From: Phycisphaerae bacterium
GTDB taxonomy: Bacteria > Planctomycetota > Phycisphaerae > UBA1845
DNA length: 64,000 nt
Assembly: GCA_020056715.1 (NCBI GenBank)
Contig: JAGVHG010000040.1
Coordinates: forward strand, 75,920-139,919
Reading direction: 5' to 3'
The notes beneath the pieces were generated by a model, which saw only the letters and a list, made by a program, of their open reading frames with translations, was not told the origin of the DNA and made no database searches. The translations under genes were made by a program, and so were the position numbers. Below are positions 37,984 through 60,930 of this stretch, one piece after another (position 1 is the stretch's first letter; each line of letters begins with the position of its first letter).

Positions 37984-38176
37984 GCCGTCGTCTGCCTACC
38001 ACCGCGAACCGCAATCATTGGTCGGTATTCTGTGTACAAGTTCTCATGCGCGCGTAGGTATGCGTGCGATTTGACCGAAAATAGGGATGTGGATACCGTA
38101 GAATGGGCGGAAAGCGTGGTTTTTCTAGGACGTTCACACCCACTCCGTGCCAGGCATGTTCGTTGGGAAGTCGTTG

Positions 38177-39899: not shown

Positions 39900-39911
39900 G
39901 AGTATGACGTG

Positions 39912-40011
39912 GATTGTCAATTGCCAATTGCCGATTGCCAATTAAAAAACGCAAGTCCACGCGCGTTCCTATTTGGCAATTGGCCCGCCTTCGGCGGGGC
40001 AATTGGCAATG
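39912..40011. repeat. inverted heptamer arrays (GATTGTC AATTGCC AATTGCC GATTGCC AATTAAA ... GGCAATT..GGCAATT GGCAATG) around GC hairpins
   Basis: The left array (39912-39946) and reverse-complement units (39975-39981, 39998-40011) flank the CCCGCC-TTCG-GGCGGG hairpin (about 39984-39998). The element fills the gspG-gspH gap. Confidence 0.7.
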
Positions 40012-40013
40012 AC

Positions 40014-41479: not shown

Positions 41480-41493
41480 GGAACCGAACAACG

Positions 41494-44406: not shown

Positions 44407-46006
44407 ACCGCCGCCGAAAAAGATCGTGGCCGTCGACTGGGACACGCGTACGCTGCGGATCGTCCATGCCCTGCTCGGCAAACGCGGGGTGAAAATCGAC
44501 CGTTTGCTTTCGGCGCCGATTCCTACGGACCTTGATCTTGCGAACCCTGAACTATTGGGGCGACACATCCGGCGAGTGCTGGACCAGGAAGGGATCCAAA
44601 CCAAGCACGCGACCGTCGACATCCCCCGCGATCAAGCCATTCTCAAGACGCTGTCGCTTCCGGCGCTTTCACCGGACGAGTTGGCGGGGATGGTGGGAAT
44701 CCAGATTGCCAAGGAGCTGCCGTTTCCGGCGAGCGAAGCAGTGATCGACTTTGCGGTTCCGCCGTTCGCGGCTTCGGCAACGACATCGGAAGTGTTGGTG
44801 GCCGCGGTGCGCCGCGAGGTCGTGCAACAATACGAAACCACGTTCGAGGTGGCGGGTCTGAAACTGGACCGTGTGGGGCTTCGCCCCTATGCGAACACGG
44901 TGGCGGTTTGCGAATTGCTTAAACATGCCTTGCCGGAACGGGTGATGTTCATCGACGTGCGGCCTTCGCTGACGGAAATCGATGTCATCCACAACGGATC
45001 GTTGACCTTCTCGCGGGCGGCGTCGGTGATGGTCTCTCAGGAGGCGCGGGGTCACGGCGAGCGGCCGCGCTTTTCGATCGTGCGCGAGAGCGGCACGAGC
45101 GAGGCGCACGTGCCGATGGACTTGGACGCCGAAACGCCGCACCACCTCGGTGACACCGAGGCCATGATTCATTCGTTGGTGGTGGAGGTGACGCGTTCGA
45201 TCGAGGCCTATCGGGCCAACGACGCCGGGGCAACCATCGACCACGTGGTCATCGCGGGCGACCTCGGGGTGGAGGAGACGCTGGCGGAAGCGATTCAGAA
45301 ACGACTCGGTATCACGACGGAACTGTACAACCCGGCGGCATCGTTCGGTTGGGAACCGGACGAAGGGGCGGGAGCATCGGCGTTCGCTTCCACGTTGGGG
45401 CTAGTGGTGGGGCACTCCTACGACCGGGCGCTACACTTCGATTTTTTACACCCCAAAAAACGCGTCTCGCAGACTCAGGAGCGGTTGAAAAAGGCGCCGC
45501 TGGTGGCGGCGGTGGCGGTGTTGTTCGTCGCGGCGGGAGGAATTGCCTTCGCCAAGTTCACCGCACCCGCCCGGAAGACCTTAGCGAGGATCGAGAGTTC
45601 GATCCAAGAGCTGGAGGACAAACGCGCCGACCACAAGAAATTCTTGGAGGTGATGGAACGAATCCGCGATTTCGACGCAGAGCAACATGTTTGGGTCGAC
45701 GTGCTGTACGACGTTCTCTACGTTCTCCCGACCAACGAGGAACTGGTGATCAACAATATAGAAATGAACCAGTCGGAGGGCCGGTTGGTGCTCAAGACCA
45801 AGACCAAGAACCGCGACACGGCTACGACCGCGGTGCGAAAGCTCGACGAGTTCCGACGAGAGGGGAAAGACCGCCCGCGGTTCAAGACGAGCATCGGCCC
45901 GCAGACGGAAAAAAAGGGCGAGAAATATGCGTATGTGCAGGACTTGCGGATTGCCCTGCTTCGGGATGACGCGGTGAAGAAGGGATCGGCGAAGTCCAAA
46001 AACTGA
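44396..46006 (+). CDS. PilM-PilN fusion (GspL-like cytoplasmic actin-like domain + TM + periplasmic domain)
   Basis: N-terminal domain of about 360 aa with PilM-like layout (IVAVDWDTRTLRIV.., IAGDLG). TM helix LVAAVAVLFVAAGGIAFA at about 45490-45560, followed by a PilN-like coiled-coil and alpha/beta domain. GTG start overlaps gspK by 11 nt. Confidence 0.6.
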   Translation: MAGRPPPKKIVAVDWDTRTLRIVHALLGKRGVKIDRLLSAPIPTDLDLANPELLGRHIRRVLDQEGIQTKHATVDIPRDQAILKTLSLPALSPDELAGMVGIQIAKELPFPASEAVIDFAVPPFAASATTSEVLVAAVRREVVQQYETTFEVAGLKLDRVGLRPYANTVAVCELLKHALPERVMFIDVRPSLTEIDVIHNGSLTFSRAASVMVSQEARGHGERPRFSIVRESGTSEAHVPMDLDAETPHHLGDTEAMIHSLVVEVTRSIEAYRANDAGATIDHVVIAGDLGVEETLAEAIQKRLGITTELYNPAASFGWEPDEGAGASAFASTLGLVVGHSYDRALHFDFLHPKKRVSQTQERLKKAPLVAAVAVLFVAAGGIAFAKFTAPARKTLARIESSIQELEDKRADHKKFLEVMERIRDFDAEQHVWVDVLYDVLYVLPTNEELVINNIEMNQSEGRLVLKTKTKNRDTATTAVRKLDEFRREGKDRPRFKTSIGPQTEKKGEKYAYVQDLRIALLRDDAVKKGSAKSKN

Positions 46007-46010
46007 AACC

Positions 46011-46028
46011 CACTGCTGACCAGCAGTG
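46011..46028. repeat. intercistronic hairpin CACTGCT-GACC-AGCAGTG
   Basis: Lies 13 nt upstream of ATG 46041. Near-identical to 13628-13648. Confidence 0.55.
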
Positions 46029-46040
46029 ACAGACGAAGTT

Positions 46041-47582
46041 ATGGATCGACGTACGAAAATCCTGGTAAGCGCGTTCGCCGTACTGGTCGGCGCGGGGTTG
46101 GTCCGCGGGGTCGTCTATCCCACCTGGATTCAGCCGTTACTGACGATCGACGAGCGGATCGTGGAACGTCAGAAGGTGTTGGATGTGCTGGAGGCGCAAG
46201 AGTCGGCCGTGCAACAGGCGCGGCACGAGTACAAGGCATTGGTTGCGCGAGTCGGCTCGTTCGACGTGAGTAAGGTCGAAACTGAGGTGCGCGATCGGCT
46301 CAATCACCTGATCGAGAGGCACCATTTGCAGGATGCGGCGGTGTCTCCCAGTCGGCCCGTGGAGGACCGTAAGACGGGCCTGTGGTCGACGTCGATTTCG
46401 GTGTCAGCGACCGGTACTTTGGAGTCGACCATCACGTTCTTGAAGGACCTCGCGGAGCTTCCCTACGTCGCGCGGGTCGGGAACCCGGTGCTGTCACCGG
46501 TGGGTGGCGGGCGAAAAGGCCCCAAACAAGACCTCCTCAGCCTGCGGGTTCCCGTGGACTTGCTGGTCCTGCCGCAAAACCGGGTGGCGGGTAGCATCCA
46601 GGTAGCGGAACTGACGCATCCCGATACGTACATTCGTCACCAGGGTCGCGAATACGCTCAGATTTGGAACCGTAAGCCGTTCTCGGAATACGTACCGCCG
46701 ATTCCGCTAAGGGCGACGGTGGCGCGAACCGTGAACGTGGAAAAGGGCCAGCCGGCCACACTCGAAGGGGCGGTGAGCGGCGGAGACGGCGAGTACACCA
46801 TCCGCTGGTCGCCGTCGGAGGGATTGAGCGATCCGACGTCGCTGCGTCCGACGGTGGATACCAGCAAAGCGGAAACGAAAACATACACCCTCACCGTCAC
46901 GGACGGCAGCGGTGGAACGTCCGAGGCCGTAGCGATGGTCACGGTGCGCGAGCCGCGGCCCGAGCCTGTGGCGGTGGTGAAACCACCAGAGCCTGTCCCC
47001 CCGCCGCCGCCGCCGGGTCCCAAGCGTTGGCCCGACGGGCGGAATATGACCATCGCCATGGCCTTATTGCGTACTTTGGGTCCGGAGCGGTTGGACGAGT
47101 TCATGGTATACAACAAACAATCCAAGCAGACCAACTATTACAAGGTCGGCGATGAATTCGACGGAGGAGAATTGGTTTTTGTGCATCAGCGCGGCGGGGT
47201 TGTGCGTAGAAATGAGGACTACTACGTGTATCCGATCGGGGCGAGCCTCGATCAACCCGTGGAAGCGAAGGCCGCCGACGACTATCCGGAGTTGAAGTCC
47301 GCGGCGGACAAGATTCGCGAGATTCGTGAGGCGCGGCAAAAGGCGATGCCCGCGCCGCCGGCAGCGCCCGAGGCACAGCCGCCGCCGACCGAGGCACCGG
47401 TGGAGAGCGGGCGGAAGATCGAGGATGCCAAGACCGAGCCGGAGCTGGAAGTGAAGCCCGCGGAAGACGCGAATGCTAAACCGGCTGAACCGGCGAGCGC
47501 GGATGAGAAACCGGCGGAGTCCAAGACGGCCAAGCCGAAGCGTCGCCCGAGTAGGCCCGTGACGCCGAAGAAACAGCCGTAG
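46041..47582 (+). CDS. PilO/GspM-like - Ig/PKD-like - PilP/GspC-HR-like fusion protein with Pro/Ala/Lys-rich tail
   Basis: TM helix (ILVSAFAVLVGAGLV), coiled coil and a PilO-like domain (ISVSATGTLESTITFLKDLAELPYV). An Ig-like module follows (EKGQPATLEGAVSGGDGEYTIRWSP..TYTLTVTDGSGG), then a beta domain (YYKVGDEFDGGELVFVHQRGGVVRRNEDYYVYPIG). Confidence 0.5.
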   Translation: MDRRTKILVSAFAVLVGAGLVRGVVYPTWIQPLLTIDERIVERQKVLDVLEAQESAVQQARHEYKALVARVGSFDVSKVETEVRDRLNHLIERHHLQDAAVSPSRPVEDRKTGLWSTSISVSATGTLESTITFLKDLAELPYVARVGNPVLSPVGGGRKGPKQDLLSLRVPVDLLVLPQNRVAGSIQVAELTHPDTYIRHQGREYAQIWNRKPFSEYVPPIPLRATVARTVNVEKGQPATLEGAVSGGDGEYTIRWSPSEGLSDPTSLRPTVDTSKAETKTYTLTVTDGSGGTSEAVAMVTVREPRPEPVAVVKPPEPVPPPPPPGPKRWPDGRNMTIAMALLRTLGPERLDEFMVYNKQSKQTNYYKVGDEFDGGELVFVHQRGGVVRRNEDYYVYPIGASLDQPVEAKAADDYPELKSAADKIREIREARQKAMPAPPAAPEAQPPPTEAPVESGRKIEDAKTEPELEVKPAEDANAKPAEPASADEKPAESKTAKPKRRPSRPVTPKKQP

Positions 47583-47621: not shown

Positions 47622-50600
47622 ATGAAACACAGACCGATCCGACGAACACGACGCCCCTTGGGGGTTGCAATTCTGTATTTGGCCGTGCTGGGGTCCGTCG
47701 GGAGCATGCCCTTCGCGCTTGCGCAGGTTCCCACCCAACCCGCCCAACCCACTCCACAGCCCGCGACTAAGGGACGTCGAACGAGCAACATAAAACCGCC
47801 TGTCCAGCCGCAACAAACGGACGAGCCAAAGACCGCGCCTGACGCCGAGGTGGAGACGCCCAAGGAGGCAGAGACCGCGCAACCGCAGACCCCGCCGCAA
47901 CCGATCCCACCACGCCCCGTGCGTCCGACGCCAGGCAAAGGGGTCGAACCGAGCGACGCAGCTGTCAAACCGACAATGCCGGAAGGCGCTCTTGATCCCG
48001 CTCGCGGCGCGGTCGCGCAACCACAGCCACAGCCAACAGCGGAAGCCCCGAAGAAACCCGATGAATCCGAAGTGGACCCGGCCAAGCGGGTGGAAGAGGC
48101 GCGTAAGGCAGCCGCGGATCGCGCCGCTGCGCGGCGTGCTCGCACCGGACAAGGTACGGACGCGACGGGTAGACCAATTGCGGGTCAGCCCGCCACGGGT
48201 GCGACGGGCTTACCTTCGGGAGCGGGTTCTATGCCGGTCATGCCGCCGTCGGGGGAGACGATGGGGGAGGTTCCGCCGGACGGCGAGCCGTCGACGACGC
48301 TCAACATCGCTCCGGCGGAAAGCGACGTGCCGCCGGAAGCGAGGATGTACGGATTCAGCATCAAGGACGGTACCTACGAACAGCTCATTGCGGGGTTCGC
48401 CCGGCAGACGGGGCTGGGCGTGATCGGCGATGCGCCCAAGGATGGGAAGGTGACGTTCGTTACTACAGAGACATTGACTTTCGATCAAACGCTCGCTCGG
48501 GTTCAGATGCTACTGTTCAAGTACAAGCCGCACGAGCCGTATTGGATCGTGCGCAACGAGACAAACCTGGAGGTCAGCAAGGTCAACGATATTTACCGCG
48601 TCCTTCCGCGGAACCGGATGTTTCGGAACTTGGACGACTACCGCGCTGCCAACCTATCAAGTGACGAGCTGGCATTGGTAGTGTATACGCCCAAGAGCGG
48701 TTCGATCGCCGCTTTGAAGCAAGTTCGGGACTGGCTGCCGGATTATGTGCGGGTGACGCCACTCGATGAGCAAAACAGCGTCACCATCTTCGCTCTGGTG
48801 AGCGACATCGAGAAATATCTCTGGTTGCTGGACTGGATCAGCGGAGCGCGCACGGACCCGCGGACGCTCACGAAGATCGAGGTCCGTCACCTCTTGGCAA
48901 GCGAGGCGCTCAACCGGATGCGACAATTGATGGACATCGAGGGGGCGCCGCAGGGTAGGCCGCAGACGGCGGTTCCGAAGCGCGCTGCGCGGGAGCCGAG
49001 CGCCTTGGACACCATGCCCGAGCCGCCCGTAACGGTGATCGCCGACGACGCCCAGGGGATCCTCCTGGTGCGGGCGATGCAGGACAAGATCGACGAGATC
49101 AAGCTGCTTCTGCCCTTCATCGACGTGGACCTGTCGACACAGTCACCGGCGCCTGTGATCGTAAAGCTGCAATACGTGGACGCGAATGATATGATCGCCA
49201 CGCTGCAGCAAATCCTGTCCGCGTCGTCGACGCCGCCGGGGACGCCTACGCCGCCCAGGGCGAAGAAGGGAAAAAAGGGCCTTCCCACGCCCGCGGGGAC
49301 GGCGCCTATGGGCGCATCGGGTACAGCTACAGCTCCGGAGAGCATCACGCTTCTGCCTCACCCCTCCGACAACGCGATCATAGTGCTCGCCGACGAAGAG
49401 GGGGTGGCGCGGGTCCGTGAGTTGGTCACGCTTTTCGACGTGTCCACGACGATGGACCCGATACGGCTTCCGTTGTCCCACGCGGACGCGAATGAAGTGC
49501 TCAATACCATTACGGCCGTGTTGGGAGCGGCTAACCCCAAAGGGAAGCCGGCCCTCGACCGGTTTACCGTGGTCGTCGATCCCGCCGGGGATGCGGTGTG
49601 GTTCAGAGGCGGCGACAAGGACCTCGCCAGGGTGAAGGGCTTGATCGAGACGATCGACGTCGCGGGGGAGCCGGTGTCGCTCCGGGTGGTGATGTTGAAG
49701 TACCAGCAGCCGACGTTCGTATCGAACATGCTGCGAGAGTTCGAGGGGACCAACTCGGCGTCCCCGACGCCGGCGCCGGCGGGGAGAAAACCAAAGAGCA
49801 AACGGGCCGTGTCGGTTCAGACTTCGAAGTTCACTCCGGACGATACGACGAACAGGTTGTTCATTATTTGTACGGAGGACGATTGGGCGCGGTACCAGCC
49901 GCTGATTGCGCAGCTCGACCGGCCGGCGGATGACGGGGAGGTGTTCGTTCGCCTGCCGCTTCAGCACGCCGAGCCGAACACGGCCATCGACCGTCTTGTA
50001 GCGATGCTCGGTGACGGGGAGAGCGTGCGGTTCATCCCCAGCGAGGGGAGCATCCTCGTGGTGGGAGCGAAGCCTCAGCAGATCGAACGCATCAAGGTGT
50101 TTATCGCCGAAGTGGACAAGCCGTCGCATGTGGAGCAGCGGACGTTCGAGATTCGGCACGCCAATCCGGCGGACATCAAGTCGGCGATCGAGAGTCTGAT
50201 CGCGGACATGCCGGTGAAGGCCCCACGACGGCCAAGGAAGGGCGACGCCGGTAAAAGTGGGGTAGCGACGGAGGCGACTGTGACGGACCAGTTGACCATC
50301 GTCCAACTCGGCCAACGGCTTGTGGTCCAGACCACGCCGGCGCGGATGGAGCAGGTTGCGGCGTTGATTGCCGAGTTCGACGTCGAGGAGGCGAAGACGG
50401 AACTGAAAGTGTACGCCGACTTCCCGCCGGGTACGAATATTGAGTCCATCTCCGATACGGTTTCGTCAGTGTTCACGGCGACTGGACGAGGCTCCAAGCG
50501 GGGAAACAAGGACGTCGCGGCGGTGGAGGGGCCGAAGTTCATCCCCCAGCCGGCGTCCGGCAAACTCGTGGTGATCGCCGATCCGTCGGTGTTCCCGGAA

Positions 50601-53600
50601 ATCGAGCGGCTCCTGAACGTGCTGCGGCGTGAGGTAGAGGCGAGGCCGACGATCGTGGCGTTCGTGGAGGTCAAGCACGCCGACCCCGCGGATTTGGTGG
50701 AAAGCATCAAGCCGCTGCTGGATATCAAGATTCGCGGGCTGGTGGAGTCGGGGGAACTGGACGAGGCCGGTGAAGAGGGCGTGGCCGCGCCGAAGATGCC
50801 CAAACGTCGGTCGGCACCCTCTCAAACCTCCAGCGACCGTTATCACCTTTCGCCCGATTCGCGGAACCACCGGATCGTGATTGCGGCGCCGCAGGTTGTC
50901 GTCGATCAAGCGAAGGCGCTGATTGCCCAGTTCGACACCCCGGGCGAAAAGCCTGTCTTCAAGACGGTGGAACTGGCCAACGCGGCGCCGGACGAAATGG
51001 TCCGCGCGGTCAAGGAGATGATGGGCAGGCCGGTGGCACGCAAGGCTGTGAGCACGGGCAAGGGGAAAGCGCCGGTCATGCCGGCCGTGGATTTAGGCGG
51101 CGGAAGCGAAGGGCTGTCGGTCGTCGAGGCGCCGGGTGGCGGCGCGGTGATCCTGCACGGGCAGGCGGCGGAGGTCGCTCAGGCCGAGGATTGGATCAAG
51201 CAACTCGACGCGATGTCCACGCGAGGGCGGACCATCAAGGTTTACGAGATCAAAAAGGCGGACATGGCCAAGCTGTTCGACCTGGTGGTGAACGTAGTCG
51301 GCAGTTCGTCGCCGGCGATGGGCGGTAAGGGCGTGCCGCAAATGCCGCATAGGTCCGCGGGCAAAGGTGCGGACACAAAAGAAAAAGACATTGAGGAGGA
51401 GTTCACCACAAGCAAGACGTTCTCCGGGGCGGACTTGTACATCCAGGCCGATTTGATCGGGAAGACGATGTTGGTTGCCGCGACGCCCTCAAAGGTTGCG
51501 GAGATAGACGACATTGTCGCTCGCTTGGACAAGGGCACGGAGGAGGCGATCGGCAGGGTCATCGGGGCGGACAAGCCGACGCCGAAGTTGATGTACGACC
51601 TGAAGGAGGCCGACGCCATCGACGCGAAATATGCCCTGCGGGACGCGTTCGAGACCATGTGGGAGCCGCGCGATGAGCTTCCCCAGGTGGATGGCTTCGG
51701 GAGCGTGTTGATCGTGCGCTATCCGCACGATGAGCGCTTCGACGAAATCCAGGAATTCATCCGCAAGTACGCGGACAAGCCCGATCCGGAGAAGACCAAG
51801 ATCGTGGCTAAGTCCTTCCCGGCCCCGGCTGGACTCAGGGCTGAGGAAGCGGCGGCTTGGATCAAAATAAATCACCCGGAGATCGTGGTGGACTTGGTGG
51901 ACAAAACGCCCGGTAGCGACAAGCCGTACGAAATCGAACAGATTCGGCCGCTTGCACCCAAGAAAGCCAATCCTTGCGTGTTGCCGGGCGCTTTTCTCCG
52001 GGCGACGGACGCCCTGCTGGGAAGCATCGTCGGTCAGTCTCCACCGCAAAACGGTGCGGGAGGCCAGCCCGAAGCCCAACCATTACCTGAGGAGGAAGCG
52101 ACCGAGGATGAGCCGGAGGAGGAAGTCGCACCCATCCCCACCGGCGATGACATGATTCGGCGAGCGATCACGCCGATCGTTCCTCGGAAGAGCAAGAAGA
52201 CCACTGAGCCCCAAGCCGACGACAAGAGTAAGACGAGTGACAAGTCGAGTGACAAGCCGGGCGAAAAAGCGGACGACAAGAAAGGGCTGACGGGAGAGCG
52301 GATCGAAATCGAATACAACAACGTGGCCGGTGTGTTCGTGGTCAAGGGGCAAGCCGGCGACGTCAAAGAGGTTGATGATTGGCTCGATGAACTCAAAGAA
52401 GGGATTGAGGACTTCCCAGTCAAACCCGACATTCGCATCTTCCGCGTGCGGTACATCGACGTGGACTTGGCGCAGGACATCTTGGAGGAGATGTTCAACG
52501 CCACGAAGCAGCAAACGGCAATGCTGCAACAACAACAGCAGGCCGCGATGCGGGCACAGCAGCAGTTGCAGCAGCGCCAGGGACAGCAGGGACAGCAACC
52601 GGGGGCCAAGGGTCAGCCAGGCGACCAAGCAGGCCCCGGCGCTCCCGGCGCTCCGGGCGGTCGAAACGCGCAGCCGCAAGCGATCCAAGCGCAGCTGGCG
52701 CCGCCGCAGCTTCCCCAGGCGGGCGTACGCATCTATCCCAACCGGCGCGATCGCACTTTGATCCTGCGCGCCGAGACCAGCCAGTATCCGCAGATCGAAG
52801 AACTCCTCGCCACGATCGATCAGCCCAAGCCCATCGACAGCTTCATGCGGACCTATCCGCTCAAGAACCTCAACGCCGCCGAAGTGGAAGAAATCCTGCG
52901 GGAAATGCTGGGGATCGGCAAGGAAGGCGCTCGTCCCAAGGCCGGGGCCGCTCGGACTCCAGGCGTACCGGGTGCACCGGGCGCGTCGGCCGCTCCGGCG
53001 GATCAACTTCCGCAGACGATTTTACAGGAGACGGTCTCCGGGGCGTCACAATTAGGCGTCGATCCTGCGGACATCAAGCTGTTCAGCAGCGAGGTGTCCA
53101 ATACGGTGATGGCCATGGCCCCGAAAAAGGCGTTGGATTTCATCGGGGAGTTAATCAACAAGCTGGAAAGCGAGGACATCCCGCAACGAACCACTAAGTA
53201 CTACGAGTTGAAGCACGCGGACGTAGAAGACGCGGCGGCGTATCTGGAGAGTCACTTCGAGGAGGCGTCGGGGCCGCGTAAAACGCGAAAAGGCGGCGGG
53301 GATGCCGCGGCCGCAGGCCCGGGCGGAAAATCCCTCAACACTCCGAGCTTCGTGCCCTATCCGCGATTGAACTTTCTGACGGTCCAAGCGACGGCGGCGC
53401 AGATCGAAGAGATCGACAAGATCGTCGAACGGATCGACGTGAGCGGGGGTACGGACAAATGGGAGGACGTGGCATTGGCCCACGCCGACGCCAAACTGGT
53501 CGCGGATACGCTGACGAAGATGTTCACCGACAAGAGCGGAGGGGGTACTGTTCCGTCGAAGGCGACGTCCAAGGGCGCGGCCATCCCCAAGTTTATCGGC

Positions 53601-55712
53601 GAGGAGGGCGGCGGGATCGTTTTGTTCAGCGCCCCACCGAGCCTGCGCGAGCAAATCCTGACGACCATTGCCAAGCTCGAAGAGCAATACAAAGAGACGC
53701 GCACCCCGCGAATTATCGAGCTAAAAAACGCCAAGCCCAGCGCCCTGGCGGAGGCGATTGAGAAGGCCTACGACGCGAAAAAAGCGGGAGGTAAGTCGGG
53801 CGGATCGACCCCCGCGCGATTTACGGTGACGGCGCATGATTCGTCCAAGCGGTTATTTGTGATCGCCGATGACGAAACTTTCAAGGAAGTCGAGGCTTTG
53901 GCGAGACTGCTGGATGACAAGCCGGGTACGATCGGGGTGGAGTTTCGGATTTATCCGCTAAAGTTCGCCAGCGCCAAGACCGTTCACGCGCAGATGACCA
54001 AGCTGCTGAAAGACTACCTGTCGCGGTTGGGTCAGGATGCCAATAAGATTGAGGCGTTCAGCGTCGAGCCGGAAGAATCGTCCAACTCGCTCATCGTGCT
54101 CGGCGGTCCCACGGTGTTCGGTTTCCTGGAGGAGAACCTTCGGAAGATCGACACGCCGGAGATGAAGACGAGCCTGCCGGCATCGCTGATTGTCCCCCTG
54201 AGCAACGCGAACGCCGCGGAAGTAGCGGGGAATATCCAAAAGCTGTACGCCGGGAAGGAGCAACCGCTGGGAGTGACCGCGCCGCAAGTGGAGGCGAACC
54301 CGTCGACGAACACGCTCATCGTGCGCGGCACCCAGTCCCAGATCAACGAGATCAAGAAGGACATCATCGACCCGCTGGAAGCGCAAGACAAGCTCGCCAG
54401 ACAGGTGCAGGTCAAGCCGATTAAGTTGAAGTTCGCCGACCCCGCCGGGGCCGCGGAGGTGATCAACAAGCTCTTCCGTTCCGAAGGCAAGAACGCCCGC
54501 GATCAGGTGCAGGCGTCAGCGGATTTCACCTCCAATTCGGTGGTCGTGGCGGCCTCGCCGGAGAACTTCAAACGCATCGAGGATTTGATCGCCCAGATCG
54601 ACAGCGCCGAGACAAGTCAACAGGACGTCCACGTGGTGGAGATCAAGCACGCCGACGCCTCGTCCGTGGCACAGACCTTGACCGAAATCTTCGTCCGCGC
54701 GGCGGCAAAACAGATGGGCAATCAAGCGCCGCCGATCACCATCTCGGCGGTGGCGGGATCGCGGGCGCTGCTCATTAAGTGCAAGACCGACGACTTCGCC
54801 CGCATCAAGGAGACGATCAAGGAGCTGGACAACGAGGACGTCGGCACCGGCGGCGAAGTCCGCGTGGTGACGCTCCTCTACGGAGACGCCAACGAAATCT
54901 CACAAGCGATGGAAAAGTATCTGACCAACTCCGGGGCGGCTGGCGGTCGCGGACCTCGGTTGATGGGCGACGCTCGGATTAGCTCTATGCCGCAGAGCAA
55001 TAGCGTGATGATCAGCGCCGCCAAGGAGGAGGTCGAGCGCTTGGTCGAGATCGCGCACGGGATGGATGTGGCCGGCGAAAAGGGCAGCGTCCCGCAGATC
55101 ATTCCGCTGAAGTACGCAAATGTTGGTATGATCCTTCCCAGCGTGCAGGAGGTGTTCACGGAGACGCGAGGCGGCGGTCGGCGGAATCAGCCCGCGCCGG
55201 TGATCGTGGCCGACGAGGGCAGCAATGCGTTGATCGTGCGGGCTTCCCAGACGGACCTGGCCGCGATCCAGGGGATCGTCACCCAGTTGGACACCGAGGA
55301 CAAGAAAGATAAGACTCCGTTCCGCATTATTAAGGTAGCGGCGGGAATCAACGTGACGGATCTGGCGGAGCAGGTGGAGACGACATTGAACGAAACCTCG
55401 CGGTCCCAGGCCGGTTCGGGGCGCGGGGCGCAGGTTCGGAGCGTCGCGGTGACGCCGAACGTGCGGACGAATAGCCTTGTCGTGTCGGGGTACGCGGCTA
55501 TGTTCGATCAGGCCGAGGCCCTGGTTCGCAAGCTCGAGGAGATGGGTCCGGTGGGCAATCGAGTGACGGCCGTCGTTCCGCTCAAGAGGACCAAGGTCGA
55601 TGAAATCCAACGGCTCATTGACCAGTTGACGCAACAGCCCGGCGGGACGGGTGATTCACGGCGCGGCGGCAGTCGTCCGCGGCCGACGAGTCGCCCGCGA
55701 TCGGGACCGTGA
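47622..55712 (+). CDS. giant secreted secretin-N-repeat protein (N0-like + ~25 N1-type modules, no secretin beta-barrel)
   Basis: Signal peptide (..GSMPFALA-QV) and a Pro/Gln-rich linker. N0/STN-like domain at aa 243-318. Repeated modules then carry the signature h.LK.A.A..h...L..hh ... D.(R)TN.LhV.A......I..LI..LD, e.g. VEIKHADASSVAQTLTEIF..SRALLIKCKTDDFARIKETIKELD. The protein ends without a barrel domain. Confidence 0.75.
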   Translation: MKHRPIRRTRRPLGVAILYLAVLGSVGSMPFALAQVPTQPAQPTPQPATKGRRTSNIKPPVQPQQTDEPKTAPDAEVETPKEAETAQPQTPPQPIPPRPVRPTPGKGVEPSDAAVKPTMPEGALDPARGAVAQPQPQPTAEAPKKPDESEVDPAKRVEEARKAAADRAAARRARTGQGTDATGRPIAGQPATGATGLPSGAGSMPVMPPSGETMGEVPPDGEPSTTLNIAPAESDVPPEARMYGFSIKDGTYEQLIAGFARQTGLGVIGDAPKDGKVTFVTTETLTFDQTLARVQMLLFKYKPHEPYWIVRNETNLEVSKVNDIYRVLPRNRMFRNLDDYRAANLSSDELALVVYTPKSGSIAALKQVRDWLPDYVRVTPLDEQNSVTIFALVSDIEKYLWLLDWISGARTDPRTLTKIEVRHLLASEALNRMRQLMDIEGAPQGRPQTAVPKRAAREPSALDTMPEPPVTVIADDAQGILLVRAMQDKIDEIKLLLPFIDVDLSTQSPAPVIVKLQYVDANDMIATLQQILSASSTPPGTPTPPRAKKGKKGLPTPAGTAPMGASGTATAPESITLLPHPSDNAIIVLADEEGVARVRELVTLFDVSTTMDPIRLPLSHADANEVLNTITAVLGAANPKGKPALDRFTVVVDPAGDAVWFRGGDKDLARVKGLIETIDVAGEPVSLRVVMLKYQQPTFVSNMLREFEGTNSASPTPAPAGRKPKSKRAVSVQTSKFTPDDTTNRLFIICTEDDWARYQPLIAQLDRPADDGEVFVRLPLQHAEPNTAIDRLVAMLGDGESVRFIPSEGSILVVGAKPQQIERIKVFIAEVDKPSHVEQRTFEIRHANPADIKSAIESLIADMPVKAPRRPRKGDAGKSGVATEATVTDQLTIVQLGQRLVVQTTPARMEQVAALIAEFDVEEAKTELKVYADFPPGTNIESISDTVSSVFTATGRGSKRGNKDVAAVEGPKFIPQPASGKLVVIADPSVFPEIERLLNVLRREVEARPTIVAFVEVKHADPADLVESIKPLLDIKIRGLVESGELDEAGEEGVAAPKMPKRRSAPSQTSSDRYHLSPDSRNHRIVIAAPQVVVDQAKALIAQFDTPGEKPVFKTVELANAAPDEMVRAVKEMMGRPVARKAVSTGKGKAPVMPAVDLGGGSEGLSVVEAPGGGAVILHGQAAEVAQAEDWIKQLDAMSTRGRTIKVYEIKKADMAKLFDLVVNVVGSSSPAMGGKGVPQMPHRSAGKGADTKEKDIEEEFTTSKTFSGADLYIQADLIGKTMLVAATPSKVAEIDDIVARLDKGTEEAIGRVIGADKPTPKLMYDLKEADAIDAKYALRDAFETMWEPRDELPQVDGFGSVLIVRYPHDERFDEIQEFIRKYADKPDPEKTKIVAKSFPAPAGLRAEEAAAWIKINHPEIVVDLVDKTPGSDKPYEIEQIRPLAPKKANPCVLPGAFLRATDALLGSIVGQSPPQNGAGGQPEAQPLPEEEATEDEPEEEVAPIPTGDDMIRRAITPIVPRKSKKTTEPQADDKSKTSDKSSDKPGEKADDKKGLTGERIEIEYNNVAGVFVVKGQAGDVKEVDDWLDELKEGIEDFPVKPDIRIFRVRYIDVDLAQDILEEMFNATKQQTAMLQQQQQAAMRAQQQLQQRQGQQGQQPGAKGQPGDQAGPGAPGAPGGRNAQPQAIQAQLAPPQLPQAGVRIYPNRRDRTLILRAETSQYPQIEELLATIDQPKPIDSFMRTYPLKNLNAAEVEEILREMLGIGKEGARPKAGAARTPGVPGAPGASAAPADQLPQTILQETVSGASQLGVDPADIKLFSSEVSNTVMAMAPKKALDFIGELINKLESEDIPQRTTKYYELKHADVEDAAAYLESHFEEASGPRKTRKGGGDAAAAGPGGKSLNTPSFVPYPRLNFLTVQATAAQIEEIDKIVERIDVSGGTDKWEDVALAHADAKLVADTLTKMFTDKSGGGTVPSKATSKGAAIPKFIGEEGGGIVLFSAPPSLREQILTTIAKLEEQYKETRTPRIIELKNAKPSALAEAIEKAYDAKKAGGKSGGSTPARFTVTAHDSSKRLFVIADDETFKEVEALARLLDDKPGTIGVEFRIYPLKFASAKTVHAQMTKLLKDYLSRLGQDANKIEAFSVEPEESSNSLIVLGGPTVFGFLEENLRKIDTPEMKTSLPASLIVPLSNANAAEVAGNIQKLYAGKEQPLGVTAPQVEANPSTNTLIVRGTQSQINEIKKDIIDPLEAQDKLARQVQVKPIKLKFADPAGAAEVINKLFRSEGKNARDQVQASADFTSNSVVVAASPENFKRIEDLIAQIDSAETSQQDVHVVEIKHADASSVAQTLTEIFVRAAAKQMGNQAPPITISAVAGSRALLIKCKTDDFARIKETIKELDNEDVGTGGEVRVVTLLYGDANEISQAMEKYLTNSGAAGGRGPRLMGDARISSMPQSNSVMISAAKEEVERLVEIAHGMDVAGEKGSVPQIIPLKYANVGMILPSVQEVFTETRGGGRRNQPAPVIVADEGSNALIVRASQTDLAAIQGIVTQLDTEDKKDKTPFRIIKVAAGINVTDLAEQVETTLNETSRSQAGSGRGAQVRSVAVTPNVRTNSLVVSGYAAMFDQAEALVRKLEEMGPVGNRVTAVVPLKRTKVDEIQRLIDQLTQQPGGTGDSRRGGSRPRPTSRPRSGP

Positions 55713-55713
55713 G

Positions 55714-55770: not shown

Positions 55771-55822
55771 CTCGGCGGGGCGGACTGTGTGGAAGGACCG
55801 GGCCATGGATGGGTTCCGGTGA

Positions 55823-58800
55823 GTGGAGGCAATGGTGATGAGGATGAACGGACAAACGAGGACGGGATGCGTCGGCCGGTGGCGATGGATATTCGCCGTG
55901 GGCGTCTTCGCGGCGAGTTTGTTGTTGGTGGACGGCTCGGCGAGAGGTCAGGCCGAGCGCAGTTCCGAACAAGCGCAAACGCAACAGCCGCCGAGCCCGC
56001 CGGCCCCACAACGCAAGGGTGCAGTGCAGCCGTCGCAACCTGCGCAACGCCCACAGCAACCACGCGGACAAAAACCGCCGGCACAGCCCGATCGGATCAG
56101 CGAGCTGGTGCGCGGACTCGACCCCGCGGTCTTGGCGCAGCTCGCCGGGGCGGAGGTGACGGCCGAGGTGGTCGGCGACCAAGTGATTTTGCAAGGCCCG
56201 GAGGAAGCGGTGAAGGCGATCGAACTGCTCATCCGAGCGCTGGAGGTCGAAAGCGAGTCGAAAGCGAAAGTCCTGCAGGTGGTCCAAGTCACGGAGCGTG
56301 ACGCCGTGGAGATCGCTCGGACCGTCCAACAGGCGGTGCGCGATGCGTTGGGATTCGCAGCGCAAAAACAGGAGGATAAGATCTCCGTCACCGCACTGTC
56401 ATCGAACATTCTATTGATAGCGGCGTCGCCGAAAGAAATCGACCAGGTGATCGACATCATCGAGCAGGTCGACGCGATTCCCGATCCGTTGGGCAAGGTG
56501 GAGTTGATGCGCTTCGACGTCGTGCATCGCAAGGCGGGCGACGTGGCCAAGGAATTGGAGAAGATCATCACCCAACTTCGCGTCGCCGCTGGGCAGAAAA
56601 AGGACCAGGGGAAGCTGCAAATCATTCCCAACAACTCCAACAACACCATTACCGTCACCGCCCGCGAAACCGAGCGCGAGAAGATCCAGGCCCTTATCGA
56701 GAATATCGACGTGGAGCCGAAAAAGGGCTGGGGCGAAATTCGCCTGACCATCTTCCCGTTGCTTCATTCCAAAGCGAGCGATCTCCAGAAAGTCATCCAG
56801 GATTTGATCAAATCGGAGGCCAAGGCGGACAAGGACGCCGTACAGGAGATGATCCAGCGCCTGCGCATAAGCAAGGCCGACGCGACCGGCAAGATGACCG
56901 ACCTTGCACCGATCGATCTTCAGCGCCAATTGCGGATCATCTCTGACACGGGCACGAACAGCTTGATCGTGGCGACGATCGAGGAGAACGTCGAGCCTAT
57001 GGGCGAGTTGATCCGCCTGCTCGACGGCGTGCCGCTCGCGGAGGAGTTCGCGGTCAAGCTGTTTCCCCTTCGCTTCGCCGACGCGGAGACGGTCAACAAA
57101 GTGCTCAAGGAGATGTTCGATTCCGGCAAGAAGCTGCCTGAGGACCCCAACGGCGGCGGAAAGGGCGGCGTCCCCACGGGTTCCGAGGGGCACGCCCTGG
57201 TATACAACGTAGGTCTGGCCACGGACTTGCGCACCAACACGTTGATCGTCTCCGGTCGCCCCGAGCAGTTGGGGCTGGTGGAGACGGTCGTCGGTGAACT
57301 GGACCGCCCCGCGACGGCCCTGAAGTTCCCCTTGCGGCTGATTCCCTTGGAGTACAACGACGCGACCGGGTTTGGGAAGATGGTGACGGAGTTGTTCGAC
57401 CAACGGATGAAGACGGTCGAGGCTACGAACGCGGGCAAGTCCGCCGCGGAACGCGAGCGCATCTTTCTCAGCGTGGACCTCCGCACCAACTCCTTGATCG
57501 TTTCGGCCTCGGAGGAGAACTTCAACGAGATTGTCGCCATCGCCCGGCAGTTGGATACGAAGCCGGCGAAGCTGTTCGACCAAATCCGAATCGTGCCGCT
57601 AGCCAGACTCACCGCCAAGGACATGAAGACCAAGATCGAGGACTTGTGGAAGCGCAAGGCCGATCTGCGCAAGGAGGGCAAGCTGCTCGAGGATCTGCCC
57701 ATCGTGGCCTTCGATGAACGCAGCAACTCGCTCGTGGTCGCCTCCAACCGCGAGGACTTCGACGAAATCCTGCGACTGGTGACTCTGCTCGAGGCCCAGC
57801 CGCTGATCGAAGATATCCGGCTGTTCAAGTTGGAGTTTGCCGACGCGGCCGTCCTTTCGGGGATGTTGGACGAGTTGTTCAAGGGTCTCGCTGGTCAATC
57901 GGAATCCTTCAAGGCGCCCACGATCATTCCCGACTCGCGAAGCAACGCGTTGGTCGTGGCGGGCGCCCGCGACGCGACGGAGCGCGTGGCCGAGGTGGTT
58001 CAACGGCTGGACGTGGAGGCCGGACCGCTCACCGCGGTTTTCAAGGTGTATCCCCTGAAGAACGGCTCGGCCAATCAGCTTGCCCAGCGGATGCAAAAGC
58101 TGTTTGACTCCCGTAAGGAGGGCGAAAAGACCGACCGGACGCCGGTGGTGATTCTGTCGGAGGAGTCGTCCAATAGCCTGGTGGTCAGCGCCTCGCGCGA
58201 CGATCATGACGTGATCGACGGCCTAATCGATCTGCTGGACAAACCGTCGAGTCTTGCCCAGCAATTCGAGATCTTCCCGCTGAAGATGTCCAAGGCCAAG
58301 ACGGTGGCGGAAAAGCTGGACAGCCTCTTCAAAGCACAGGGCGAGGGAACGACGGGTCGGGCGGATGCCATCGCCACGCAGGCCGACGAGCGGACCAACT
58401 CGATCATCGTGTGGGCGTCGCCCTCGCAAATGGCCAACATCGGCGAGGTCATCGCCAAGCTCGACACCTCCACGCCGGCCGTGGAGATGATGATTAAGGT
58501 TATCCAACTCAAGCAGGCGCTAGCGACGGATTTCGCCAAACTGCTCGAGGAGACGCTGATTGGCGACAAGTCCGGCGGCGATGAGGAGCGTGCGGTCATC
58601 GTGTCGTTTCTGGAAAAAAACCCGAACGGCAAGGAAATCCTACGCAAGTTGTTGCGCCAGGACATCCGCATCAAGCCCGACCCTCGGACCAACTCCGTGA
58701 TGGTCATGGCCCCGGCGGACAGTATGTCGATGCTGGAGGCGATGATACTTGACTTCGACCGCATCCGCCCGGTGACCTCCGAAATCCGCCTGTTTCCGCT

Positions 58801-60379: not shown

Positions 60380-60930
60380 CCACCGTCCAGGCGATGATAC
60401 GGCGAAGGTTTCGGTCGGTGGCGACATGCTTGGGCGTGTTCGCCTTGGTCACCGGCGGATGCCGTTCTTTGGGTAGGACGGACGCAAGCTCACCGCCGTC
60501 GTCGTCGCGCCCCATCCGCTCGGGCGACATTCACGGCGTGGTTTGTCTGTTCGATCAAAAGCCGTGGATCAGCGTCGATGCCGCGGGAGATCCCGATCCG
60601 GAGGGCATCCGCTATCGTGTCTTTCTCGACCCCGGCAAAGGTAAATGCGTTCTACGTGAAGGTTCGTTTCGTATTGAGATGTATCTGATCGATCGCACGG
60701 ACTCCGGCGATACTGAGCGTACGCTGGTGAGCGATTGGAATTATCCGACGAGCGAGCTTGGAACCGTTCTTTCCAAGATTCTCGGCAAAGGCTATCACCT
60801 TCAACTGCGCTGGGCGAAGAAAGACACCGCCGGGCACGAGATCGAAGTGGTCACGCAGTTCATCGATCGATACGGCAACACCACGCGGTCGCCGACCAAG
60901 CGACTCCGCGTGCCGAAGTATTCGTCCTGA
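60376..60930 (+). CDS. lipoprotein, candidate pilotin/secretin accessory
   Basis: Lipobox-like LVTGGC after a basic/hydrophobic signal. Its ATG overlaps the secretin TGA (ATGA). The longer ORF-track version is an artefactual extension. Confidence 0.45.
   Translation: MTTVQAMIRRRFRSVATCLGVFALVTGGCRSLGRTDASSPPSSSRPIRSGDIHGVVCLFDQKPWISVDAAGDPDPEGIRYRVFLDPGKGKCVLREGSFRIEMYLIDRTDSGDTERTLVSDWNYPTSELGTVLSKILGKGYHLQLRWAKKDTAGHEIEVVTQFIDRYGNTTRSPTKRLRVPKYSS

What the first reader, a model, noticed from the sequence alone, without database searches (positions are those of the whole stretch)
47622..55712. 2,696-aa secreted protein: N0-like domain plus about 25 tandem secretin-N modules and no beta-barrel
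After a signal peptide and a Pro/Gln-rich linker of about 200 aa comes an N0/STN-like domain (aa 243-318, nt 48348-48575). By hand I then count about 24-26 consecutive modules with the secretin N1-N3 signature: beta-alpha h.LK.A.A..h...L..hh, a variable loop, then D..TN.LhV.A......I..LI..LD. The protein ends in a basic tail without any secretin/pore domain. Canonical GspD has N0 plus three such modules, and PilQ has even fewer. Several loops are long and low-complexity, for example a Gln-rich tract at about 52503-52722 and an acidic/basic linker at about 52029-52287. Suppose the modules oligomerise into stacked rings as in known secretins, at a few nm per ring. The product could then line a periplasmic conduit many tens of nm long. 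That would fit a cell with an enlarged periplasm, but this is inference. A link to planctomycetal envelope structures such as crateriform pits is pure speculation.
Basis: partly seen in the sequence, partly recalled or inferred. Interest (0 to 1): 0.9.

Follow-up and report, generated by a model that had tools for sequence, protein, structure and literature searches.

The report
Split giant secretin, inner half
This 2,696-residue protein is the inner half of an outer-membrane secretion channel that has been split into two adjacent genes and carries about 38 stacked-ring modules instead of the usual three to six, so it may build an exceptionally long tunnel across the cell envelope of Phycisphaerae bacteria.

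Summary
ORF 47622-55712 encodes a signal peptide, a Pro/Gln linker and a true N0 domain (AlphaFold plus Foldseek). These are followed by 25 Secretin_N modules, a conserved terminal half-module and a basic tail. There is no pore.

The next gene (55823/55838-60379) is a real secretin. It has its own signal peptide, the complementary second half of a module, 12 further modules and the PF00263 pore. Both genes sit at the end of a T2SS-like operon (GspF, G, three pseudopilins, K, PilM/L-like).

The pair is conserved in all 14 Phycisphaerae metagenome-assembled genomes (MAGs) recovered, and about 70 orthologues exist. Both genes are under purifying selection (dN/dS about 0.15-0.2).

Related Phycisphaerales carry one 3,500-4,700-aa GspD with 30-46 modules in the same operon slot. 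In those proteins the module homologous to the break point is intact and has a Gly/Arg-rich loop. A sister clade has a single ORF with an internal signal-peptide-like segment at that loop.

So this is a secretin split inside one N-module. I infer, but have not shown, that the two chains re-join at the split module. I also infer that the rings stack into a conduit of roughly 100-200 nm. I found no published description. The link to crateriform pits remains untested.

The parts
38147..39376 (+). GspF-like inner-membrane platform protein, first gene of the operon
   Evidence: Pfam T2SSF E=3e-56. NCBIfam GspF 337 bits, below the 424 cutoff.
39435..39899 (+). GspG-type major pseudopilin
   Evidence: Pfam T2SSG and N_methyl. 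NCBIfam TIGR01710 118 bits, above the 88.85 cutoff.
39909..42468 (+). Three minor pseudopilin-like genes (39909-40775, 40772-41479, 41476-42468)
   Evidence: Weak N_methyl, XpsH, XpsI and GspJ matches. Same three genes in orthologous loci L001, L017 and L018.
42469..44406 (+). GspK-like minor pseudopilin (645 aa)
   Evidence: Pfam T2SSK_1st E=1e-12. NCBIfam T2SS_GspK 88 bits, below cutoff.
44396..46006 (+). PilM/GspL-like bitopic protein: cytoplasmic actin-like domain, one transmembrane (TM) helix, periplasmic domain
   Evidence: Pfam PilM_2 E=2e-29. NCBIfam pilM and the Amuc_1101 family. TM segment read from the translation.
46026..47582 (+). 518-aa bitopic protein: N-terminal TM helix, weak GspM-like region, PKD/Ig domain, Pro-rich linker, C-terminal beta-rich domain. 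Candidate partner of the N0 domain.
   Evidence: Weak PKD/Big_9 matches. T2SSM E=0.07. Sequence. The partner role is inference only.
47622..55712 (+). Protein A, 2,696 aa: inner part of the split secretin (the finding)
47622..47723 (+). A signal peptide (aa 1-34, cleavage after ALA)
   Evidence: Read from the sequence. The N-terminus is conserved in orthologues P0002-P0006. Not run through a predictor.
47724..48359 (+). Pro/Gln/Ala-rich, poorly conserved linker (aa 35-246)
   Evidence: Mean identity to orthologues 0.21, gap fraction 0.39.
48360..48602 (+). N0 domain (aa 247-327)
   Evidence: AlphaFold pLDDT 86. Foldseek hits GspD/XcpQ/PulD N0-N1 at E about 1e-6. Most conserved part of A, identity 0.68.
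48666..48848 (+). N1-like module (aa 349-409)
   Evidence: beta-alpha-beta-beta-alpha in the AlphaFold model. Identity 0.64.
48876..55538 (+). 24 consecutive Secretin_N modules (aa 419-2639) joined by linkers of about 8-13 residues
   Evidence: Own module HMM. Pfam, 20 stretches. Per-module table.
51819..52397 (+). Module 12, with an acidic then basic insertion of about 130 aa in the alpha1-beta2 loop
52437..52823 (+). Module 13, with a Gln/Gly/Pro-rich alpha1-beta2 loop
55572..55637 (+). C-terminal half-module: beta1-alpha1 only (aa 2651-2672, VTAVVPLKRTKVDEIQRLIDQLTQQ)
   Evidence: Matches module HMM positions 1-41. Conserved without gaps in about 65 orthologues.
55638..55709 (+). Arg/Ser/Gly/Pro-rich basic tail (aa 2673-2696)
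   Evidence: Present in essentially all A-type orthologues. Corresponds to the Gly/Arg-rich loop of the intact module in fused relatives.
55823..60379 (+). Protein B, the pore-bearing outer part of the split secretin. 1,518 aa from GTG 55823; more likely 1,513 aa from ATG 55838, which has GGAGG 8 nt upstream.
   Evidence: Pfam Secretin_N x11 plus Secretin E=4e-47. NCBIfam GspD 551 bits, above the 351 cutoff. Start-site reasoning.
56087..56248 (+). B N-terminal half-module: two short helices then beta2-beta3-alpha2. It follows B's own signal peptide and a Pro/Gln linker.
   Evidence: Matches module HMM positions 23/24-71 only. The same holds in 13 orthologous loci (all those that retain the downstream B ORF) and in most of 120 B orthologues.
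56279..59311 (+). 12 complete Secretin_N modules of B
59558..60055 (+). Secretin beta-barrel pore domain of B (aa 1246-1411)
   Evidence: Pfam PF00263 E=4e-47.
60376..60930 (+). 184-aa putative lipoprotein, translationally coupled to B (ATGA overlap). Candidate pilotin.
   Evidence: Sequence. Syntenic small gene after the secretin in L001, L017 and L018. No family match. The role is inference.

Best explanation
Protein A is the inner-membrane-proximal portion of a giant GspD-type secretin encoded by two adjacent genes. The system is a T2SS-like (type IV filament) machine of an uncultured Phycisphaerae planctomycete.

Shown:
- A has a signal peptide, a linker, N0, 25 Secretin_N modules, beta1-alpha1 of a 26th module and a basic tail.
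- The next gene, B, has its own signal peptide, beta2-beta3-alpha2 of a module, 12 modules and the secretin pore.
- Single-gene relatives in the same operon slot have 30-46 modules plus the pore.
- Those relatives have an intact module, with a long Gly/Arg-rich alpha1-beta2 loop, at the site homologous to the break.
- The split state is derived, conserved and under purifying selection.

Inferred:
- Both chains are exported by Sec.
- B multimerises into the outer-membrane pore, with 12.5 N-rings hanging below it.
- A multimerises with the same symmetry and stacks beneath B.
- The two are held in register by non-covalent completion of the split module: A donates beta1-alpha1 to B's beta2-beta3-alpha2.
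- A's N0 ring docks on the inner-membrane platform, as GspD N0 docks on GspC.
- The result would be a continuous periplasmic conduit of about 38 rings. At 3-5 nm per ring this is roughly 100-200 nm. A GspG-type pseudopilus or fibre, or its cargo, would travel through it.
For: Architecture of A and B:
- Searches give the domain content. N0 is confirmed by structure.
- The T2SS-like operon is shown.

Conservation of the pair:
- All 14 Phycisphaerae/Planctomycetota MAG loci found by scanning for the A C-terminus carry an A-type ORF. In the 13 whose contig continues downstream, a B-type secretin ORF follows directly.
- Synteny holds at 72% identity.
- About 35 A/B pairs share contigs, judged by matching contig lengths.

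Half-modules:
- A's C-terminus matches HMM positions 1-41. B's first module matches positions 23/24-71.
- The same holds in 13 loci and in most of 120 B orthologues.
- A's half-module and tail are conserved in about 65 orthologues.
- The two halves spliced together give a full-length 1-71 HMM match of 30.8 bits.

Fused relatives:
- Proteins of 3,500-4,700 aa with 30-46 modules plus pore exist.
- They occupy the same operon slot.
- A spliced A-end/B-start query aligns continuously across the junction. The best HSP lies at B-like distances from the C-terminus.
- The homologous site is an intact module with a Gly/Arg-rich loop in 6 proteins.
- It carries a basic tail plus an internal signal-like hydrophobic segment in 7 proteins.

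Evolution and selection:
- A neighbour-joining (NJ) tree of the pore region puts the split clade as monophyletic, the internal-signal class as its sister, and the intact forms outside.
- dN/dS is 0.16-0.22 for A and 0.14-0.16 for B.

Geometry:
- Inter-module linkers are about 8-13 residues. Modules are conserved one-to-one across orthologues with few gaps. Both fit a fixed-length rod.
- Precedent: the six N-rings of Thermus PilQ span a wide periplasm as a channel about 35 nm long (PMC5745081; PMC4463427).
Against: - Oligomerisation, ring stacking and A-B contact were not shown.
- The AlphaFold run on an A-end/B-start chimera was only moderately confident (mean pLDDT 66, pTM 0.39; half-modules pLDDT about 56-78). 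No coordinates were available, so strand pairing across the split could not be verified.
- B has two conserved short helices before beta2. These could substitute for alpha1, leaving A's helix without an obvious place.
- A's modules do not map one-to-one onto modules of the fused proteins. Only B's last 3-4 modules do. Orthology of the inner arrays therefore rests on synteny and the junction region.
- A conduit of 100-200 nm is far longer than any characterised secretin. I know of no data on periplasm width in these uncultured organisms.
- No GspE ATPase or prepilin peptidase lies in the window.
Confidence: 0.7

Rival explanations
1. A is an accessory periplasmic spacer or tether, not part of a closed channel. 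Its modules would be beads on a string, or a sleeve around something else. It would link the inner-membrane platform to the secretin, or set the distance between membranes, without forming stacked rings that line a conduit.
For: - No direct evidence for ring formation.
- Several alpha1-beta2 loops are long and low-complexity.
- A's modules are not collinear with those of fused secretins.
- In other secretins the N-terminal rings are often disordered or flexible (PMC5745081).
Against: - In fused relatives the same kind of array is covalently continuous with the pore.
- N0 sits at the distal end, as in every secretin.
- Linkers between modules are short and uniform.
- The break lies inside a module rather than between domains.
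Confidence: 0.17
2. A is a decaying or non-functional remnant of a disrupted giant secretin gene, or an assembly or frameshift artefact. B would be the working secretin.
For: - The two ORFs look like one gene cut in the middle of a domain.
- Public gene calls for A are inconsistent, at 2,493 and 2,578 aa.
Against: - dN/dS is 0.16-0.22 over 2,650 codons.
- About 70 orthologues with conserved architecture extend down to 28% identity.
- The terminal half-module and tail are conserved.
- B has its own conserved signal peptide and ribosome-binding site.
- The arrangement occurs in 14 independent MAG loci.
Confidence: 0.02
3. A is a secreted or surface-exposed repeat protein, for example a substrate of the adjacent machine or an adhesin, that merely reuses the Secretin_N fold.
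For: - Large, repetitive, signal-peptide-bearing proteins with low-complexity linkers are typical of planctomycete surface proteins (own knowledge).
- The basic tail could be a sorting or anchoring signal.
Against: - A has a bona fide N0 domain, which in secretins contacts the inner-membrane platform.
- It is homologous and syntenic to the N-terminal part of single-gene secretins.
- It has no adhesin, enzymatic or sorting domains.
Confidence: 0.04

Closest known systems
T2SS secretin GspD / PulD / XcpQ (TIGR02517; PDB 3ezj, 5ngi, 6hcg)
   Same: - N0 fold followed by beta-alpha-beta-beta-alpha N-modules.
- Operon with GspF, G, K and an L-like gene.
- B has the PF00263 pore and passes the GspD equivalog cutoff.
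- A's N0-N1 model superposes on GspD/XcpQ/PulD N0-N1.
   Different: - Canonical GspD is one polypeptide of about 650-750 aa with N0 plus three N-modules.
- Here there are about 38 modules, divided between two polypeptides each with its own signal peptide.
- The break lies inside a module.
- A alone has no pore.
Thermus thermophilus PilQ (N0-N5, six stacked rings; PMC5745081, PMC4463427)
   Same: Extra N-type rings extend the secretin channel to about 35 nm across an unusually wide periplasm. This is the best precedent for more modules giving a longer conduit.
   Different: - PilQ has six rings in one 757-aa chain and belongs to a type IVa pilus system.
- The present system has about six times as many modules, T2SS-type pseudopilins and two chains.
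Single-gene giant GspD of Phycisphaerales MAGs (e.g. P0107 4,305 aa, P0077 4,681 aa, P0081 3,729 aa; database entries only)
   Same: - Same operon position.
- N0 annotated in some (PF21305).
- 30-46 Secretin_N modules plus pore.
- In six of them (e.g. P0077, P0081, P0096), an intact module with a Gly/Arg-rich loop at the site homologous to the A/B break.
   Different: - One ORF, with no internal stop.
- Only about 21-25% identity to A.
- Inner modules are not one-to-one with A's.
- I found no publication on them.
Single-ORF relatives with an internal signal-peptide-like segment (P0075, P0079, P0080, P0085, P0087, P0090, P0113)
   Same: - Sister clade of the split secretins.
- Same operon slot.
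- Same beta1-alpha1 plus basic tail, then a hydrophobic A/L-rich segment ending in AxA-like motifs, then beta2-beta3-alpha2.
   Different: No stop codon between the two parts. Whether they yield one chain or two, by internal cleavage or internal initiation, is unknown.
Secretin-associated scaffolds such as GspB/OutB or the DR_1364 belt of Deinococcus (PMC9239104, PMC10828601)
   Same: Separate polypeptides that extend or brace the periplasmic part of a secretin.
   Different: These are unrelated folds that bind alongside the secretin. A is itself made of secretin N0/N modules and is homologous to the N-terminal part of a secretin.

Membership tests
Secretin (GspD-type, Pfam PF00263 / TIGR02517) | C-terminal secretin beta-barrel pore domain | tested here: not met
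   No PF00263 match in A. The TIGR02517 hit of A covers only model positions of the N-domains, matched repeatedly. The pore is in the adjacent protein B, PF00263 E=4e-47.
Secretin (GspD-type) | N-terminal N0 domain | tested here: met
   AlphaFold model of aa 236-420, pLDDT 86. Foldseek top hits are XcpQ/GspD/PulD N0-N1, E about 1e-6. Sequence profiles alone were only marginal, E about 0.13 to PDB GspD N0.
Secretin (GspD-type) | One or more Secretin_N (N1-N3 type) modules after N0 | tested here: met
   PF03958 E=1.8e-177, 20 stretches. 24 modules plus a half by own HMM, and an N1-like module in the model.
Secretin (GspD-type) | Sec signal peptide | tested here: inconclusive
   A typical n-h-c region with ALA|Q is visible in the translation and conserved in orthologues. 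No signal-peptide predictor was available.
Secretin (GspD-type) | Homo-oligomerisation (12-15-mer) into stacked rings | not testable with these tools
   Only single-chain AlphaFold was available. No multimer prediction or coordinates.
Type II secretion system locus | Co-located GspF, GspG, minor pseudopilins GspH/I/J/K and a GspL/M-type assembly platform | tested here: met
   Only GspG and B pass NCBIfam cutoffs. F, K and PilM-like are clear but sub-threshold.
Type II secretion system locus | GspE ATPase and prepilin peptidase GspO | tested here: not met
   No T2SSE or peptidase_A24 match among the large ORFs of the window that were scanned. They may lie elsewhere in the genome.
Type IVa pilus secretin PilQ | AMIN domains and a PilQ-type secretin (TIGR02515) | tested here: not met
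   No AMIN match. TIGR02515 is below cutoff for both A (97 vs 284 bits) and B (258 vs 284 bits).
Split (two-gene) giant secretin of Phycisphaerae (proposed here) | Pore-less N0 plus multi-module protein ending in beta1-alpha1 and a basic tail. It is followed directly by a secretin gene starting with a signal peptide and beta2-beta3-alpha2. | tested here: met
   Window. Orthologous loci.

The most novel reading that the evidence does not exclude
A secretin channel is built from two different polypeptides that are joined in the periplasm by non-covalent completion of a split N-domain. Together they stack about 38 rings into a trans-envelope conduit 100-200 nm long. This would be the longest secretion or pilus conduit known. 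It is a candidate molecular basis for envelope-spanning structures in Phycisphaerae with enlarged periplasm. The conserved Gly/Arg-rich loop or tail at the split site would mark a functional level of the stack, such as a cell-wall contact or an assembly checkpoint.
Probability: 0.35. Interest if true: 0.85.

Novelty: new variant of a known kind. Interest (0 to 1): 0.72.

Why it matters
Secretins are among the best-studied outer-membrane machines. The accepted picture is one polypeptide with N0 plus a handful of N-rings. [quoted passage not shown]

A lineage-wide family with 30-50 N-modules changes the expected size range by nearly an order of magnitude. So does a derived form in which the protein is cut inside one module into two separately exported chains.

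This raises concrete questions:
- How are two ring stacks registered?
- How does a pseudopilus or fibre work over more than 100 nm?
- What sets periplasm width in Planctomycetota?

It also offers a natural experiment. Module number varies between species and could be correlated with envelope dimensions by cryo-ET. The fused, internal-signal and split series is a clean example of gene fission within a domain. Finally, it gives a specific, testable gene candidate for large envelope-spanning complexes in planctomycetes, whose molecular identities are unknown.

Tried and rejected
   - An unpaired alignment was unusable because MAFFT placed the A-only rows on B's modules.
   - The run finally accepted had alignment depth only for the B part. 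It gave a modest model without coordinates. It neither proves nor disproves complementation.

2. Module-by-module best-match mapping of A+B onto four fused giants showed collinearity only for B's last 3-4 modules, plus one consecutive pair. One-to-one orthology of A's modules with fused proteins is therefore rejected.

3. Sequence-profile detection of N0 was marginal (PDB profile search E about 0.13; Pfam TcpQ weak). Structure was needed.

4. The first alignment for the genome scan was too diverse to yield a search pattern.

5. The two GC-rich hairpins in the A-B intergenic region are not better than shuffles (z -0.68). I make no regulatory claim.

6. The C-terminal domain of the 518-aa neighbour resembles GspC-HR/PilP by eye, but no HMM supports this.

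7. Exact look-up of the NCBI gene call P0001 found no contig. Cluster look-ups gave no cultured organism.

8. Six literature searches found no description of giant or split planctomycete secretins. The Omnitrophota giant-gene preprint is unrelated.

9. The pseudogene or artefact reading is rejected on dN/dS and conservation.
Full report
**Observation**

The ORF at 47622-55712 (+) is real and uninterrupted, with an ATG start and 2,696 codons. Pfam assigns Secretin_N (PF03958) at E=1.8e-177 with 20 individually significant stretches and finds no secretin pore domain.

I built a module HMM by iterating from one repeat against the protein itself. It finds 24 modules between aa 419 and 2639. It also finds a last match at aa 2651-2695 that covers only model positions 1-41, which is beta1-alpha1.

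An AlphaFold model of aa 236-420 was built with an alignment of 28 orthologues (pLDDT 86, pTM 0.78). It shows a beta-alpha-beta-beta-alpha-beta-beta domain at aa 247-327, followed by a beta-alpha-beta-beta-alpha module at aa 349-409. Foldseek against the PDB returns the N0-N1(-N2) structures of XcpQ (5ngi, 4ec5, 4e9j, 5mp2), ETEC GspD (3ezj, 3oss) and PulD (6hcg, TMq 0.57). T3SS secretins, PilQ N0 and DotD follow.

The signal peptide was judged by eye only.

The next ORF starts at GTG 55823. More probably it starts at ATG 55838, which has GGAGG 8 nt upstream and matches 1,513-aa database members. It runs to 60379 and is a bona fide secretin.
- Pfam finds 11 Secretin_N stretches plus PF00263 at E=4e-47.
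- NCBIfam GspD scores 551 bits against a cutoff of 351.
- My HMM finds 13 module matches.

Upstream and co-directional are GspF, GspG (above NCBIfam cutoff), three minor-pseudopilin-like genes and a GspK-like gene. A PilM-type protein with a TM helix and a periplasmic domain (GspL-like) and a 518-aa bitopic protein follow. A 184-aa putative lipoprotein overlaps the secretin's stop codon.

The finding is therefore the penultimate large gene of a T2SS-like operon. No GspE ATPase or prepilin peptidase lies in the window.

**The two proteins are two halves of one secretin**

- A carries the N0 domain. B has none.
- B's first module matches only HMM positions 23/24-71, which is beta2-beta3-alpha2. 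It comes after B's own signal peptide and a Pro/Gln linker.
- A ends with beta1-alpha1. Spliced together, the two halves give a full-length 1-71 match of 30.8 bits, at the low end of the 28-66-bit range of the complete modules.

The arrangement is conserved.
- A search of 5.8 billion proteins returned about 74 pore-less A-type proteins. They are 2,300-3,500 aa with 18-33 modules, and where named they come from Phycisphaerae or Planctomycetota MAGs.
- Essentially all end in the same beta1-alpha1 (consensus ..TRIv.v.N...deIQRLIDQLT..) followed by an Arg/Ser/Gly/Pro tail.
- A scan of one genome per species found 14 loci, all Phycisphaerae or Planctomycetota MAGs. Each has an A-type ORF. In the 13 whose contig continues downstream, it is followed within 4-200 nt by a B-type ORF.
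- In each of those 13, B's first module is the second half only. It is preceded by a conserved motif, DRIsELlk.lDP..L.rL.GA.
- Among 120 B orthologues, 67 show 12 full modules plus a detectable half. A further 42 show 12 module matches, in most of which the half falls below threshold. A subclade has 16-17.

Synteny of the whole operon holds at 72% identity. dN/dS against four orthologues is 0.16-0.22 for A and 0.14-0.16 for B. This excludes a pseudogene or an assembly artefact.

**Single-gene relatives and the origin of the split**

The same protein search returned about 45 proteins of 3,500-4,700 aa with 30-46 Secretin_N modules and a pore. Some have a Pfam GspD-N0 hit. Sources annotate them as 'type II secretion system protein D' of Phycisphaerales. 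A plus B gives 37.5 modules and 4,209-4,214 residues, which is inside that range.

P0107 (4,305 aa) and P0075 (4,461 aa) sit in exactly the operon slot occupied by A+B: GspF-G-three pseudopilins-K-PilM-like-one more gene-[secretin]-small gene.

Module-by-module matching shows one-to-one correspondence only for B's last 3-4 modules. However, a query made by splicing A's end to B's half-module aligns continuously across the junction. Its top HSP is clearly separated from the other repeat registers, for example 190 against 96 bits in P0075.

A profile of A's C-terminal region locates the homologous site at about 1,450-1,860 residues from the C-terminus of these proteins. B is about 1,515 residues. 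Three states are seen there.
- **Intact.** Six proteins (P0077, P0081, P0082, P0091, P0093, P0096) have an intact module whose alpha1-beta2 loop is a Gly/Arg/Ser-rich stretch of 25-45 residues.
- **Internal signal.** Seven proteins (P0075, P0079, P0080, P0085, P0087, P0090, P0113) have a single ORF. After beta1-alpha1 comes the same kind of basic tract. Then comes a hydrophobic, signal-peptide-like segment (e.g. ...RRGPAMAQFAPRYAPLATALLSLAIAQAAPPP...), then a linker and beta2-beta3-alpha2. The DNA of P0075's locus confirms there is no stop.
- **Split.** This is the two-gene state of the window.

A neighbour-joining tree of the last three modules plus the pore was midpoint-rooted. It makes the split proteins monophyletic, the internal-signal class their sister, and all intact forms the outgroup.

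The most economical reading is fission of an ancestral giant GspD within the alpha1-beta2 loop of the module about 13 positions from the pore. An internal export signal would have arisen before, or together with, the stop codon. The tree is a simple distance tree, so the direction of change is likely rather than proven.

**How it probably works**

Shown:
- the domain architecture of both proteins;
- the operon;
- the homology and position-equivalence to single-chain giant secretins;
- the conservation of both half-modules and of the basic tail;
- short, uniform inter-module linkers of about 8-13 residues;
- a near one-to-one conservation of A's modules among orthologues, with gap fractions mostly below 0.1. 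N0 and N1 are the most conserved parts at 0.68 and 0.64 identity, against 0.35-0.55 for the other modules (0.29 for module 12, which carries the long insertion).

Inferred from what is established for GspD, PulD and Thermus PilQ:
- B forms the outer-membrane pore with its N-rings below.
- A forms rings of the same symmetry stacked under B.
- A's N0 ring engages the inner-membrane platform.
- The conserved half-modules complete one another in trans and so register the two stacks.

For scale, the Thermus PilQ channel (secretin plus six rings) is about 35 nm long (PMC4463427). [quoted passage not shown] At 3-5 nm per ring, about 38 rings would give very roughly 100-200 nm. That figure is an extrapolation, not a result.

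The AlphaFold run on an A-end/B-start chimera predicted A's terminal segment as a seven-residue beta-strand plus helix. It predicted B's start as helix-helix-strand-strand-helix. Confidence was modest and I had no access to coordinates. It is weakly compatible with complementation and no more.

**Rivals**

- *Pseudogene or artefact.* Effectively excluded.
- *Secreted substrate or adhesin.* This reading does not fit the N0 domain and the homology to secretin N-termini.
- *Non-channel spacer or tether.* This is the serious alternative. It accepts the same gene-level conclusion but denies ring stacking. I cannot exclude it without multimer modelling or imaging.

**Comparison with the known, and novelty**

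As a fold and a system, this is a secretin of the T2SS/type IV filament kind.

As a family member, A alone fails the defining pore criterion. It is best described as the N-terminal subunit of a two-chain secretin.

Six full-text searches found nothing on planctomycete secretins with tens of N-domains or on split secretins. The Boedeker et al. paper on planctomycete cell biology describes crateriform structures that connect the outer and cytoplasmic membranes and carry 12-nm fibres. It gives them no molecular identity, and it studied Planctomycetia (PMC5394234).

Databases label these proteins generically as 'secretin N-terminal domain-containing protein' or 'type II secretion system protein D'. 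I therefore rate this a new variant of a known kind. The giant single-chain forms are themselves apparently undescribed.

Subscription-only literature could not be searched.

**Verdict**

The object is the inner half of a conserved, split, giant GspD-type secretin. The long-conduit and split-domain-docking mechanisms are well-motivated inferences awaiting multimer modelling and cryo-ET.

Noticed in passing
window 60376-60930 (+): A 184-aa ORF overlaps the secretin's stop codon (ATGA). Its N-terminus is lipoprotein-like (..ALVTGGC..). A small gene occupies the same position after the secretin in L001, L017 and L018. It matches no family and could be a pilotin-type assembly factor.
   Followed up: partly
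window 46026-47582 (+): A 518-aa protein sits between the PilM/L-like gene and A. It has an N-terminal TM helix, a weak GspM-like region (E 0.07), a PKD/Ig domain and a Pro-rich linker. Its C-terminal beta-rich domain looks like GspC-HR/PilP by eye but has no HMM support. It is a possible N0-binding partner.
   Followed up: partly
P0075 residues about 2706-2850 (locus L018, about nt 17100-17550); also P0079, P0080, P0085, P0087, P0090, P0113: These are single-ORF giant secretins that carry an internal signal-peptide-like hydrophobic segment, ending in AxA-like motifs, inside an N-module loop. Whether they are cleaved, internally initiated or left intact is unknown. An internal export signal in a periplasmic protein is odd in itself.
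   Followed up: partly
window 55638-55709, and the homologous loops in fused relatives: A Gly/Arg/Ser/Pro-rich disordered tract is conserved at this one level of the module stack. It occurs in the split, internal-signal and intact forms. Its function is unexplained; it might contact the cell wall or an acidic loop.
   Followed up: partly
window 47622 vs public gene calls (P0001 2,493 aa; P0241 2,578 aa); window 55823 vs 55838: Public annotations of A start at internal Met codons and lose the signal peptide. Orthologues support ATG 47622. B's GTG 55823 start is probably wrong by 15 nt, because ATG 55838 has a GGAGG 8 nt upstream.
   Followed up: yes
window 55713-55822: Two GC-rich hairpins without a T-run lie between A and B. 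Their folding energy is not better than shuffled sequence (z -0.68).
   Followed up: yes
window 51819-52397: Module 12 of A carries an insertion of about 130 aa with a strongly acidic stretch, followed by a Lys/Ser/Asp-rich stretch and a lone Cys. It is the least conserved module, with identity 0.29.
   Followed up: no
window 20597-22066 (-) and 16902-18914 (-): An RCC1-repeat protein with an IPTL-CTERM sorting motif and a Kelch-repeat protein lie here. Both are eukaryote-like beta-propeller proteins.
   Followed up: no
window 13688-14809 (-): A deoxyhypusine synthase homologue (Pfam DS, E=5e-74).
   Followed up: no
window 61755-63725 (-): An Hsp70 family protein lies here. In the syntenic locus L001 the corresponding gene lies within an Fe-S cluster assembly (isc/hsc) gene set, so it is probably HscA rather than DnaK.
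   Followed up: no
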